Source: an uncultured archaeon
GTDB lineage: Archaea; Asgardarchaeota; Thorarchaeia; Thorarchaeales; Thorarchaeaceae
Length of the DNA: 53,870 nucleotides
Reading direction: 5' to 3'
NCBI GenBank assembly: GCA_964558645.1
Contig: CAZLEV010000004.1
Span: forward strand, 53,472 to 107,341
Shown here piece after piece: positions 43,867-44,975 of this stretch. Numbering within the stretch: position 1 is the first letter of the stretch; every line of letters starts with the position of its first letter. The position numbers and the translations under genes were made by a program. The notes below the pieces were generated by a model that was not told the origin of the DNA, did not search any database, and was given only the letters and a program-made list of their open reading frames with translations.

Positions 43867-44355
43867 TTACACCCTCTCAGGCTTCTGAGAGAAACGCTTC
43901 TTGGTTCTCTGAACGCGCCCATCGTCGTATTTGGGAAGCTGATCATAGTTGCCATCCCAGTGTAGAGGCTGGCACTCCGGCATCTTATGCAGAAGCTGAC
44001 CCAACATAAAGGCCATTGAAACGGGACATGAGAGTGCAATCTTAAGCGAGGTCAGCCCTATTGCTCTCCGGATACGGTCGATGACGACAGCTGTGTCTTC
44101 TGAGAGCCGAGTAATCTTGTCAACTGGTATCTGATGAGGTGGACCGATGACGGCCAGAACATCGTATGCTGCCGCCTTGAGATCGGTATACACCGGTCGT
44201 GAGAACCCGACTCCAATCACTGGATTATCAATGTCATCGGGAAGGGCCACATCCGGGATTTTGTTTGGGTCAGAGATTGCCTCAATGATATAAGAAGGGC
44301 CCGAAACCTCCACCTCGCCAATTCTCACTGTCGTCTGTTCAACCTCTTGAGTCAT
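43867..44355 (-). CDS. Stand-alone half-SAVED domain protein A
   Basis: VIGVGFSRPV...IALSCPVSMAFMLGQLL...LHWDGNY matches the SAVED C-terminal-half pattern (hhh.xP.xhAF.hG...Y). 162 aa. Confidence 0.68.
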   Translation of the reverse strand: MTQEVEQTTVRIGEVEVSGPSYIIEAISDPNKIPDVALPDDIDNPVIGVGFSRPVYTDLKAAAYDVLAVIGPPHQIPVDKITRLSEDTAVVIDRIRRAIGLTSLKIALSCPVSMAFMLGQLLHKMPECQPLHWDGNYDQLPKYDDGRVQRTKKRFSQKPERV

Positions 44356-44483
44356 TGCGGCACGAGAAAACGTAGGGCACCTTATGGACTTGTCGGATTG
44401 CCCAGATCCGTCAATCCAATGATGTCCGGCGGTACTCTCAGAGTTTCAGCAATCCATAGAGGGAAGTAAGAAAAGGAGGCAAC

Positions 44484-44975
44484 ATGATTGCCAATTGGCA
44501 GGAGAACCATAGTATGGCGGATATTCTTACAACTTTCGTTGGAAGCATTGGCTATCTGATATCGACCAAGTATGAGCAGATACGGGACTGGATGGAAAGG
44601 CGTCAAGGAGTGCCGTTGAGAATGGAGCTCGATGATGGAAGACCCCCAGCAATCGTTGTTTCTTTTTCACAGGATGTCGCCGATGACGTTAAGATTCAAG
44701 GATTCAATGTTATAGCCCAAATAGGCACACCGAAGAAGCTCTCGACAAAAGAGATAACCCGTTGGTCAGAGGGAGCTGCTGCAATCATCGAACAGATGCG
44801 ACGAGGAGTTTCTCAAGGGCCCCTGACGGTAGCACTCAGCTGTCCTGTTGCTGCTGCTTTCACGATTGGACTCATCCTGGGCCATAGCGCAGAGTACCGA
44901 ATACTTCACTGGGACGGAAAAAGTTACGTCCCGCTTGAATTCATAGACATGGATAGGTTTAGGAAGAGTCTATAG
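44484..44975 (+). CDS. Stand-alone half-SAVED domain protein B, hydrophobic/amphipathic N-terminus
   Basis: AIVVSFSQDV...VALSCPVAAAFTIGLIL...LHWDGKSY, with an AAGGAGG SD. Paralog of protein A. Confidence 0.68.
   Translation: MIANWQENHSMADILTTFVGSIGYLISTKYEQIRDWMERRQGVPLRMELDDGRPPAIVVSFSQDVADDVKIQGFNVIAQIGTPKKLSTKEITRWSEGAAAIIEQMRRGVSQGPLTVALSCPVAAAFTIGLILGHSAEYRILHWDGKSYVPLEFIDMDRFRKSL

What the first reader, a model, noticed from the sequence alone, without database searches (positions are those of the whole stretch)
43867..44975. Divergent pair of paralogous half-SAVED proteins: a possible split SAVED sensor or ring nuclease
Seen: two genes of about 162 aa, back to back and 128 nt apart, align without gaps over 96 residues at 41 identities (manual count; shared FS..V..D, ITR.SE, ALSCPV..AF..G, LHWDG). 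Their N-termini are unrelated: acidic and beta-like in A, hydrophobic (ILTTFVGSIGYLI) in B. Known: SAVED is a single-chain pseudo-dimer of two CARF-like units, is normally fused to an effector, and can be a ring nuclease (CalpL). Inference: each protein has only one unit and lacks the usual HLF histidine. An A/B heterodimer (or homodimers) could rebuild a cyclic-oligonucleotide pocket, making this a CARF-to-SAVED intermediate acting as trans sensor, sponge or ring nuclease, with B possibly membrane-associated.
Basis: partly seen in the sequence, partly recalled or inferred. Interest (0 to 1): 0.85.

Follow-up and report, generated by a model that had tools for sequence, protein, structure and literature searches.

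The report
Two-gene split SAVED-like cyclic-nucleotide sensor pair
Next to a type III CRISPR system in a Thorarchaeota (Asgard archaeon) genome lie two diverged copies of a small gene, each encoding half of a SAVED-type cyclic-nucleotide sensor; the two halves probably pair up, and related genomes carry the same two genes head-to-head, in tandem or fused, showing stepwise how two-lobed sensors can arise.

Summary
A (43867-44355, minus strand, 162 aa) and B (44484-44975, plus strand, 163 aa) are divergent paralogues: 41/97 identical, no gaps, E 7e-26.

Each is a single CARF-like lobe. Its closest structural match is the C-terminal lobe of SAVED domains (Z 7-13); canonical CARFs score about 5.4-6.5.

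The family is rare: 14 cluster representatives at E<=1e-10 among 1.84 billion, found only in Thorarchaeaceae among 400 Asgard genomes. It always comes as one A-type plus one B-type:
- six divergent pairs
- one tandem B->A pair inside a Cmr locus
- one B-A fusion

A:B is predicted to bind (ipSAE 0.90, best control 0.00) through the helices that form the SAVED pseudo-two-fold axis.

Four of eight loci touch a type III system. This one has a GGDD Cas10 without HD, a Csm6 and a solo CARF.

The catalytic His of SAVED and Csx15 ring nucleases is Pro in A-types and Asp/Asn in most B-types. I therefore favour a cOA-binding heterodimer that buffers the signal (sponge or slow nuclease).

Membrane anchoring of B is not supported. 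Duplication of a single-lobe gene fits better than fission of a SAVED.

Recent Csx15 papers already describe the half-SAVED idea; the two-gene heterodimer stage is new. The scan has not noted this on other DNA.

The parts
43867..44355 (-). Gene A (162 aa), A-type half-SAVED. An N-terminal beta-hairpin plus helix (res 7-28) is followed by one CARF-like lobe (res 45-156). Motifs: FSRP after strand 1, LSCPV..AF..G, LHWDG, C-terminal R-x-x-R.
   Evidence: ORF. Pfam SAVED 24.8 bits, below the 26.2 cut-off, profile positions 122-180/190. PADLOC SAVED4--SAVED positions 4-98/104, E 1e-8. AF2 model pLDDT 87.5. VIA-align: top 12 hits are all SAVED C-terminal lobes, Z 7.2-10.9, e.g. 9r8s_B residues 103-235, rmsd 2.9 over 118.
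44484..44975 (+). Gene B (163 aa; possible alternative start at 44514), B-type half-SAVED. A moderately hydrophobic N-terminal segment, modelled at low confidence, is followed by one CARF-like lobe (res 55-162). Motifs: FSQD after strand 1, LSCPV..AF..G, LHWDG, C-terminal DRFRK.
   Evidence: ORF. Pfam SAVED 16.8 bits. PADLOC SAVED4--SAVED 4-94/104, E 2e-7, and the C-terminus of CRISPR-Lon, E 3e-6. AF2 model pLDDT 79, core 87-96, residues 1-40 at 42-59. VIA-align: top 12 hits are all SAVED C-terminal lobes, Z 7.9-12.8.
44356..44483 (.). Shared 128-nt divergent promoter region. A 21-nt block at 44379-44399 (ACCTTATGGACTTGTCGGATT) is 20/21 identical in the L001 orthologous spacer although synonymous sites are saturated. 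A GGAGG lies 5 nt before the ATG at 44484.
   Evidence: Sequence; alignment with L001; dS about 1.7. A regulatory role is inferred, not tested.
37355..39883 (-). Cas10 of the adjacent type III-D effector operon (34905-43155). The GGDD cyclase motif is intact and no HD motif was seen by eye at the N-terminus. It is the presumed source of the cyclic oligoadenylate signal.
   Evidence: NCBIfam and PADLOC Cas10 hits. The translation shows ...LYVGGDDFMLL....
33333..34865 (+). Csm6-type CARF-6H-HEPN ribonuclease, a canonical cOA-activated effector in the same locus and the likely object of any cOA buffering.
   Evidence: Pfam: Cas_Cas02710 (HEPN) 1.8e-12, CARF_Card1 9.5e-6, Csm6_6H 1.5e-4.
44959..47635 (.). 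Accessory cassette next to B: a 290-aa protein (44959-45831, -; its 3' end overlaps B by 17 nt), a solo CARF (46012-46572, +) and a PIN-like protein (46523-47635, +). It accompanies the A/B pair only here and in the close relative L001.
   Evidence: tblastn and blastp across loci.

Best explanation
A and B are paralogous single-lobe proteins of the SAVED/Csx15 type. They assemble into an obligate A:B heterodimer, the structural equivalent of one two-lobed SAVED domain (or one Csx15 homodimer). The dimer axis runs between the hydrophobic helices that follow the S-C-P motif.

The heterodimer binds the cyclic oligoadenylate made by the neighbouring GGDD-proficient Cas10, which shows no HD motif. 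Binding probably works as in SAVED and Csx15, with the ligand sandwiched between head-to-tail stacked units: the strand-1 and S-C-P loops on one face and the conserved C-terminal R-x-x-R/K on the other.

Both paralogues lack the catalytic histidine of the SAVED and Csx15 ring nucleases. The most likely role is therefore a non-catalytic or very slow cOA buffer (a sponge, as reported for PfCsx15) that sets the threshold for Csm6 and the other cOA-dependent effectors.

Shown here: paralogy, the single-lobe SAVED-like fold, strict A+B co-occurrence, the tandem and fused forms, and enrichment with Cas10. Inferred: heterodimer formation, cOA binding, and sponge rather than enzyme.
For: Fold:
- Both models match only SAVED C-terminal lobes at the top: A Z 7.2-10.9, B Z 7.9-12.8. 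Canonical CARFs score 5.4-6.5.
- The family profile hits the AcrIII-2 viral SAVED ring nuclease 9r8s at E 2.4e-9, with both lobes matched separately.

Pairing:
- An exhaustive profile search of 1.84 billion representatives finds 14 proteins at E<=1e-10, falling into A-type and B-type, plus one 336-aa B-A fusion.
- All 6 positive genomes among 87 in the class (and among 400 in the phylum) carry exactly one of each type.
- Tandem B->A genes lie 14 nt apart inside a Cmr locus.
- B-types are monophyletic (100/99), and the A and B trees agree for WIN/L001 and G014/G009.
- Complex model: ipSAE 0.90 against a best control of 0.00. That mark was reached by 58 of 80 solved complexes and 2 of 110 mismatched pairs. 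Runs agree in at least 86% of contacts and partner pLDDT is at least 78. The tightest contacts are A115-120 with B125-130. These correspond to the helices on the pseudo-two-fold axis of the CalpL SAVED domain.

Link to cOA signalling:
- The pair is adjacent to or embedded in type III loci in 4 of 8 loci and about 12 kb away in a fifth.
- Cas10 is present in 5 of 6 pair-bearing genomes against 8 of 81 others (Fisher p 1.9e-4; related genomes are not independent).
- The locus has a GGDD Cas10 and a Csm6.

Catalytic residues:
- AcrIII-2 H128 aligns with Pro in A-types and Asp/Asn in most B-types. S194 aligns with S or A. R96/K99 align with a conserved R-x-x-R/K (residues from PMC12751052).

Precedent:
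- Csx15 dimers stack head-to-tail to bind cA4, and some are non-enzymatic sponges (PMC13148439).
[quoted passage not shown] The A/B pair shows a similar pattern.
Against: - No ligand binding was tested or modelled.
- Two loci are not next to CRISPR: G015 lies in a restriction-modification island and G014 among housekeeping and TPR genes. No Cas10 or SMODS was found in G014, which is 91% complete.
- The complex score cannot separate A:B from A:A or B:B, because close cousins of a true partner also pass. It may also reflect memory of solved SAVED and CARF dimers.
- A serine after strand 1 is invariant (S52 in A). Serines in this position serve CARF ring nucleases (my recollection, not checked here), so His-independent catalysis is not excluded.
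- Two B-types (P0008, P0048) have a His one residue before the H128 position.
- The Pfam and NCBIfam SAVED scores are below their curated cut-offs.
Confidence: 0.5

Rival explanations
1. The A:B heterodimer is a true ring nuclease. It degrades cOA in a composite site formed on stacking, using residues other than the canonical histidine: the invariant Ser after strand 1, the Asp of B-types and the C-terminal Arg/Lys.
For: The nearest characterised relatives by sequence and fold are ring nucleases: AcrIII-2 and CalpL SAVED (PMC12751052, PMC11417357). Equivalents of R96/K99 and S194 are retained. S52 is invariant in 16 sequences. The pair sits beside effectors that need switching off (Csm6).
Against: H128 is essential in AcrIII-2, and the matching His is described as catalytic in CalpL and Csx15. 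It is absent from A-types and from most B-types. The locus already has a solo CARF that an earlier unchecked note reads as Crn1-like; here it gave only weak CARF hits.
Confidence: 0.2
2. The pair is a trans-acting sensor. cOA-induced stacking of A:B units recruits or activates effectors encoded separately without a sensor domain. Candidates are the 290-aa protein whose 3' end overlaps B and the PIN-like protein, perhaps through the divergent N-terminal extensions.
For: SAVED filaments activate fused effectors, as described in the introductions of PMC12751052 and PMC13148439. The 17-nt tail overlap of B with the 290-aa gene is kept in L001. A and B have distinct, subfamily-specific N-termini that lie mostly outside the predicted interface.
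Against: The 290-aa, CARF and PIN genes accompany the pair only in the window and its close relative L001. No other neighbour is shared across all loci. No family was found for the 290-aa protein. No interaction was tested.
Confidence: 0.15
3. The pair has nothing to do with cOA signalling. It binds another nucleotide or small ligand, or has a role unrelated to defence, and its CRISPR neighbourhood reflects defence-island clustering.
For: The G014 pair lies among housekeeping and TPR genes in a genome with no Cas10 or SMODS detected. The G015 pair lies between methyltransferase and restriction genes.
Against: Cas10 is enriched in pair-bearing genomes (5/6 against 8/81). The tandem pair is embedded between cas6 and cas1. 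All close structural relatives are cyclic-nucleotide sensors. Csx15 also occurs without type III in 25% of cases (PMC12409355).
Confidence: 0.1
4. A and B each act as separate homodimers (two Csx15-like proteins with different specificities) and do not form a heterodimer.
For: Csx15 and CARF proteins are homodimers (PMC13148439). The complex tool passes close cousins of true partners, so 0.90 does not discriminate. Only one complex job was available, so A:A and B:B were not run.
Against: Co-occurrence is strict, one of each type in 8 of 8 loci. A B-A fusion and a tandem pair in the same order exist. The subfamilies are stable.
Confidence: 0.05

Closest known systems
Csx15 (CRISPR-associated single-lobe CARF/SAVED-superfamily protein; PMC13148439, bioRxiv 10.64898/2026.10.26.761840)
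   Same: A small stand-alone protein of one lobe whose dimer is equivalent to one SAVED monomer. An Arg on the opposite face is conserved. Some members are non-catalytic sponges. It is often but not always next to type III loci, and it co-occurs with a Crn1-type CARF. Csx15-Csx15 fusions exist.
   Different: Csx15 is a homodimer of one gene; here two diverged paralogues (42% identical) always occur together. The catalytic His after strand 1 is absent. A and B carry 45-55-residue N-terminal extensions. The NCBIfam and PADLOC scans returned only SAVED-type models. Sequence membership in Csx15 could not be tested because no Csx15 model or sequence was available here.
AcrIII-2 / Crn5 stand-alone SAVED ring nuclease (PDB 9r8s; PMC12751052) and the SAVED domain of CalpL (7qda)
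   Same: These are the best sequence hit in the PDB (E 2.4e-9) and top-tier fold hits (Z 10.5-11.5). They share the S-x-P..AF..G helix motif, a C-terminal basic motif equivalent to R96/K99, and the SAVED4 clade by PADLOC models. A's N-terminal hairpin superposes on the inter-lobe linker and extra strand.
   Different: Those proteins have two lobes in one chain of about 240 aa, with lobes far more diverged from each other than A is from B. They have the catalytic H128 and the conserved H-[IL]-F histidine; A and B have neither.
Canonical CARF domains (Csm6, Can2, Cam1, Cad1)
   Same: A Rossmann-like lobe that dimerises to bind cOA on the two-fold axis.
   Different: Fold scores are clearly lower (Z 5.4-6.5 against 7-13 for SAVED lobes). 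According to the Csx15 preprint, SAVED and Csx15 lobes lack one alpha-beta unit of CARF and use both faces for a composite site.
PADLOC 'SAVED4--SAVED' short stand-alone model (PDLC02008) and an ESM Atlas cluster of 108-aa archaeal SAVED-like proteins
   Same: A and B cover nearly the whole 104-position model. The Atlas cluster (141 members, 91% Archaea) superposes on A residues 43-150 with TM 0.81 by the cluster model and rmsd 1.9.
   Different: Those entries are single catalogued proteins with no described pairing or function. A and B have extra N-terminal segments and come as an A-type/B-type pair.

Membership tests
SAVED domain (Pfam PF18145 / NCBIfam NF033611) | Score above the curated cut-off of the family model | tested here: not met
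   Pfam: A 24.8 and B 16.8 bits against 26.2. NCBIfam: 23.6 and 19.5 against 33. Only the C-terminal part of each model is matched.
SAVED domain (Pfam PF18145 / NCBIfam NF033611) | Two CARF-like lobes in one chain (pseudo-dimer) | tested here: not met
   The A and B models each have one lobe of four parallel strands plus one antiparallel strand. They align only to residues 101-235 of 9r8s or the equivalent C-terminal lobes.
SAVED domain (Pfam PF18145 / NCBIfam NF033611) | Lobe fold closer to SAVED than to CARF | tested here: met
   The top 12 of 48,161 PDB representatives are SAVED lobes for both models (Z 7.2-12.8). CARFs score Z 5.4-6.5.
SAVED domain (Pfam PF18145 / NCBIfam NF033611) | Fusion to an effector domain | tested here: not met
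   The proteins are 162 and 163 aa with no further domain. The only longer relative at E<=1e-10 is the B-A fusion.
AcrIII-2 / Crn5 / CalpL-type SAVED ring nuclease | Catalytic histidine after strand 1 of lobe 2 (H128 of AcrIII-2) | tested here: not met
   In alignment A5, H128 aligns with Pro in all A-types shown (FSRP) and with Asp/Asn in most B-types (FSQD, FSRN). Numbering was checked on P0043.
AcrIII-2 / Crn5 / CalpL-type SAVED ring nuclease | Opposite-face basic residues (R96, K99) and S194 | tested here: met
   R-x-x-R/K is present in the C-terminal helix of nearly all A- and B-types. S194 aligns with S or A of the [SA]-C-P motif. This rests on alignment only.
Csx15 | Single-lobe stand-alone protein whose dimer equals one SAVED monomer | tested here: inconclusive
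   The single lobe is shown. The dimer interface uses the helices after S-C-P, as on the SAVED pseudo-two-fold axis. No coordinates of the complex were available to superpose on a SAVED monomer.
Csx15 | Sequence membership (Csx15 profile or PSI-BLAST cluster) | not testable with these tools
   No Csx15 model accession or sequence was at hand. The NCBIfam and PADLOC scans returned only SAVED-type models. No Csx15 chain appeared in the PDB sequence or fold searches.
Csx15 | Catalytic His after strand 1 (H8/H13) | tested here: not met
   No conserved His is present in the loop after strand 1. The published PfCsx15 is also inactive, so this does not exclude a Csx15-like sponge.
Csx15 | Homodimer of one gene product | tested here: inconclusive
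   Genetics point to a heterodimer: one A-type plus one B-type in 8 of 8 loci, a fusion and a tandem pair. Homodimers were not modelled.
PADLOC SAVED4--SAVED (PDLC02008) | Match over the whole 104-position model | tested here: met
   A covers 4-98/104 at E 1.1e-8; B covers 4-94/104 at E 2.2e-7. This library has no curated cut-off.

The most novel reading that the evidence does not exclude
The A:B heterodimer is an asymmetric receptor made from two genes. It either recognises an asymmetric or odd-numbered cyclic oligonucleotide (for example cA3 or cA5) or, on ligand-driven stacking, switches on separately encoded effectors that have no sensor domain. The divergent, tandem and fused arrangements in Thorarchaeaceae would then be a living series of the homodimer -> paralogous heterodimer -> fused SAVED transition.
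Probability: 0.2. Interest if true: 0.8.

Novelty: new variant of a known kind. Interest (0 to 1): 0.6.

Why it matters
The 2026 Csx15 preprint proposes that SAVED sensors, central to CBASS and type III CRISPR signalling, arose by duplication and fusion of a Csx15-like single-lobe protein. It documents homodimers and fusions but does not mention a paralogous two-gene stage (a search of its text for 'paralog', 'heterodimer' and 'tandem' found nothing).

The A/B family supplies that stage. It also offers divergent, tandem and fused arrangements of the same two paralogues within one archaeal family. This makes the step from symmetric to pseudo-symmetric ligand recognition directly testable by comparing A:A, B:B, A:B and the natural fusion.

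It also adds a candidate cOA regulator to Asgard archaeal type III systems. And it warns annotators that SAVED hits below threshold on proteins of about 160 aa may be real half-domains.

Tried and rejected
- Word-index homologue searches found only 1-2 relatives each. The exhaustive search was needed.
With A1 it found nothing. With P0007 it returned only that protein's own locus, which did name the organism as Candidatus Thorarchaeota.
- An alignment meant for folding the fusion P0006 put all A- and B-types on its first half. The fusion was therefore not folded, and the second structure job went to B.
- Contexts of the more distant small single-lobe proteins (P0027, P0026) were on contigs too short to be informative. 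P0015 likewise.
- A scan with TIGR03984, guessed as a possible Csx15 model, gave no name and no hit.
- No Csx15 chain appeared in the PDB sequence or fold searches, so no direct comparison was possible.
- SMODS (CD-NTase) was not found in five pair-bearing genomes.
- Sequencing runs: no RNA holder was listed; the holders are marine-sediment DNA runs.
- Membrane anchoring of B was rejected. The most hydrophobic 19-mer in every family member is the buried strand-helix around S-C-P, the same region that was mispredicted as transmembrane in CalpL.
- Fission of a full SAVED was rejected as the origin, because A and B are far more alike than the two lobes of any full-length SAVED compared here.
- The literature search for 'SAVED4' gave only the CalpL preprint.
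Full report
**Observation**

A is at 43867-44355 on the minus strand (162 aa) and B at 44484-44975 on the plus strand (163 aa). They are transcribed divergently from a 128-nt spacer. BLASTP of A against B gives 41 identities in 97 ungapped positions, E 7e-26. The N-termini do not align.

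Against the orthologues in the metagenomic locus L001, dN/dS is about 0.10 for A and 0.06 for B, with synonymous sites saturated. Both are therefore real genes under selection.

**What each protein is**

Pfam and NCBIfam report only SAVED, below the curated cut-offs and only over the C-terminal part of the models. PADLOC's short 'SAVED4--SAVED' model (104 positions) is covered almost end to end by both proteins (E 1e-8 and 2e-7). The next hits are the C-terminal ends of CRISPR-Lon/CalpL models.

A profile of the family hits the stand-alone viral SAVED ring nuclease AcrIII-2 (PDB 9r8s) at E 2.4e-9. The two lobes are matched separately, the C-terminal one best. CalpL is hit at E 0.022.

AlphaFold2 models are confident for A (pLDDT 87.5) and for the core of B (87-96). 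Residues 1-40 of B are modelled at 42-59. Each model is one Rossmann-like lobe with four parallel strands and one antiparallel strand.

An exhaustive structural comparison with 48,161 PDB representatives puts only SAVED domains in the top twelve for both models. These are Cap5, AcrIII-2, Cap14, CalpL, TIR-SAVED and Cap4, and always the C-terminal lobe. Z is 7.2-10.9 for A and 7.9-12.8 for B. Canonical CARF domains score Z 5.4-6.5, among unrelated Rossmann folds.

A's N-terminal hairpin is included in the superposition on 9r8s residues 103-235. It therefore corresponds to the inter-lobe linker and extra strand of a full SAVED.

**The pair is the unit**

HMMER read all 1.84 billion cluster representatives and found 14 proteins at E<=1e-10. 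They fall into two types:
- A-type, with an N-terminal beta-hairpin and FSRP after strand 1.
- B-type, with a hydrophobic N-terminal segment and FS[QHR]D after strand 1.

There is also one 336-aa protein, P0006, whose first half is B-type and second half A-type.

In the 87 species genomes of the window's class, and in 400 genomes of its phylum, six genomes have a match. All six are in one family. Each has exactly one A-type and one B-type side by side: five divergent pairs and the fusion. One of these genomes is labelled Candidatus Thorarchaeota, and the window's DNA is held in marine-sediment runs.

L001 adds a sixth divergent pair. L029/L030 carry B then A in tandem on one strand, 14 nt apart, in the same order as the fusion.

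In trees the A/B family is one clade (99-100% support). B-types, including the N-half of the fusion, are monophyletic (99-100%). The C-half of the fusion falls among A-types. The A and B trees agree where they are resolved. One duplication therefore predates all known loci. The resolution is too low to say which arrangement came first.

The nearest outgroups are other small single-lobe proteins, not the lobes of full-length SAVEDs. Together with 42% identity between A and B, this argues for duplication of a single-lobe gene rather than fission of a SAVED.

**Heterodimer**

The complex predictor gave ipSAE 0.90 in three runs, against 0.00 for the best of three controls. That mark was reached by 58 of 80 solved complexes and 2 of 110 mismatched pairs. 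The runs agree in at least 86% of contacts, and partner pLDDT is at least 78.

The tightest contacts are A115-120 with B125-130, the helices that follow the S-C-P motif. The CalpL structure paper places the pseudo-two-fold axis of its SAVED domain between the equivalent helices. It also notes that TMHMM mispredicted those helices as transmembrane.

Two caveats apply. SAVED and CARF dimers are solved, so the pass may come from memory. Close cousins of true partners also pass, so the score does not separate A:B from A:A or B:B. The genetic evidence (8 of 8 loci with one of each type, a tandem pair, a fusion) carries the heterodimer claim.

**Link to type III CRISPR signalling**

In the window the pair lies about 700 nt from a type III-D operon (34905-43155). 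Its Cas10 keeps GGDD, and I saw no HD motif at its N-terminus. The locus also holds:
- a Csm6-type CARF-6H-HEPN gene at 33333-34865
- a solo CARF and an overlapping PIN-like gene
- a 290-aa gene
- a CRISPR array of about 78 repeats

In other loci the pair or fusion is next to type III-B genes in L001 and L004, and embedded between cas6 and cas1 in L029. It lies about 12 kb from a Cmr operon in G009. It sits on a 5-kb contig in G013. In G015 it lies between methyltransferase and restriction genes, and in G014 among housekeeping and TPR genes. No Cas10 or SMODS was found in G014, which is 91% complete.

Cas10 is present in 5 of 6 pair-bearing genomes against 8 of 81 others (Fisher p 1.9e-4; related genomes are not independent).

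Apart from A and B, no neighbour is shared by all loci. The 290-aa/CARF/PIN cassette is shared only with L001.

**Mechanism**

AcrIII-2 and CalpL bind cA4 between head-to-tail stacked SAVED units and cleave it in a composite site. In AcrIII-2 the site uses H128 and S194 on one face and R96 and K99 on the other (PMC12751052). I checked the numbering on a near-identical protein from the search.

In the alignment:
- S194 falls on the Ser/Ala of the family's [SA]-C-P motif.
- R96/K99 fall on a conserved R-x-x-R/K in the C-terminal helix of both types.
- H128 falls on Pro in A-types and on Asp or Asn in most B-types.
- The conserved H-[IL]-F histidine of SAVED strands is also missing.

Csx15, described in 2025-2026, is a single-lobe homodimer whose dimer superposes on one AcrIII-2 monomer. 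It stacks head-to-tail around cA4 and uses a His after strand 1 (PMC13148439; bioRxiv 10.64898/2026.10.26.761840). PfCsx15, which is inactive as a nuclease, is proposed to act as a sponge. [quoted passage not shown]

The A/B pair behaves similarly. I therefore favour a cOA-binding heterodimer that buffers the signal without cleaving it, or cleaving it only slowly. A His-independent nuclease remains possible, because a Ser after strand 1 is invariant.

The N-terminal 19-mer scores 1.14 on the Kyte-Doolittle scale, the fused form has charges in that segment, and the most hydrophobic stretch in every member is the buried S-C-P strand-helix.

**Comparison and novelty**

The half-SAVED concept, and the model that SAVED arose from duplicated Csx15-like units, are already published, including Csx15-Csx15 fusions. 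That preprint does not mention paralogous pairs or heterodimers. A search for all papers naming Csx15 listed none whose title or abstract describes such pairs.

What is new here is a family in which the duplicated halves are kept as two genes, in three arrangements, within Asgard archaea. Membership in the Csx15 sequence family could not be tested. By the models available, the proteins are nearest to the SAVED4 (CalpL-type) C-terminal lobe.

I rate it a new variant of a known kind, of moderate to good interest. The scan's earlier notes contain this stretch only from this genome.

Noticed in passing
L029:7519-8468 (also L030): B-type (P0054) and A-type (P0014) genes lie in tandem on one strand, 14 nt apart. 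They sit between cas6 and cas1-cas2 of a type III-B Cmr locus (GCA_027101075.1), in the same order as the fusion.
   Followed up: yes
L004:10001-11011 (= G005:C29): A natural B-A fusion of 336 aa (P0006), next to a CARF-like 323-aa gene and a type III locus. In its A-half the S-C-P motif reads A-S-P.
   Followed up: partly
window 33333-34865 (+): A Csm6-type CARF-6H-HEPN effector beside the III-D operon. The locus therefore has a canonical cOA-activated RNase in addition to the unfused CARF, PIN and SAVED-like genes.
   Followed up: partly
window 46012-47635 (+): A solo CARF gene (186 aa) overlaps a PIN-like gene (370 aa). PADLOC knows the fused CARF_m1--CARF_PIN architecture. The same two genes are separate in L001 as well.
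   Followed up: partly
window 44959-45831 (-): A 290-aa protein with no family hit in Pfam, NCBIfam or PADLOC. Its 3' end overlaps B by 17 nt, and the same overlap is kept in L001.
   Followed up: no
window 27389-28960 (+): A 523-aa protein with no Pfam family. It has 25-28% identical homologues directly next to the pair in L001 (542 aa, with a wHTH) and next to the fusion in L004 (569 aa). It may be a recurrent type III accessory gene.
   Followed up: partly
window 32299-33138 (-): A DUF6293_C / HFX_2341_N winged-helix protein, with homologues near the pair in L001 and L004.
   Followed up: partly
window 44379-44399: A 21-nt block in the A-B spacer is 20/21 identical in L001 although synonymous sites are saturated. 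It is a candidate shared promoter or operator. An earlier count gave wrong coordinates (44368-44389); these are the correct ones.
   Followed up: partly
window 47990-53870: A CRISPR array of about 78 copies of a 37-nt repeat running to the window's end. Read on the minus strand, the repeat ends in ATTGAAAG, the usual 8-nt handle (from memory). That orientation matches the cas operon.
   Followed up: no
proteins P0021, P0027, P0036, P0038 and P0026, P0035, P0047; ESM Atlas rows: Other small (108-210 aa) single-lobe SAVED-like families exist in archaea and bacteria, some with hydrophobic N-terminal helices. Whether they are also paired is unknown, because the contigs were too short.
   Followed up: partly
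protein P0017: An A-type protein whose sequence departs from the family after about residue 104, just before the S-C-P motif. It is probably a frameshifted or broken copy.
   Followed up: no
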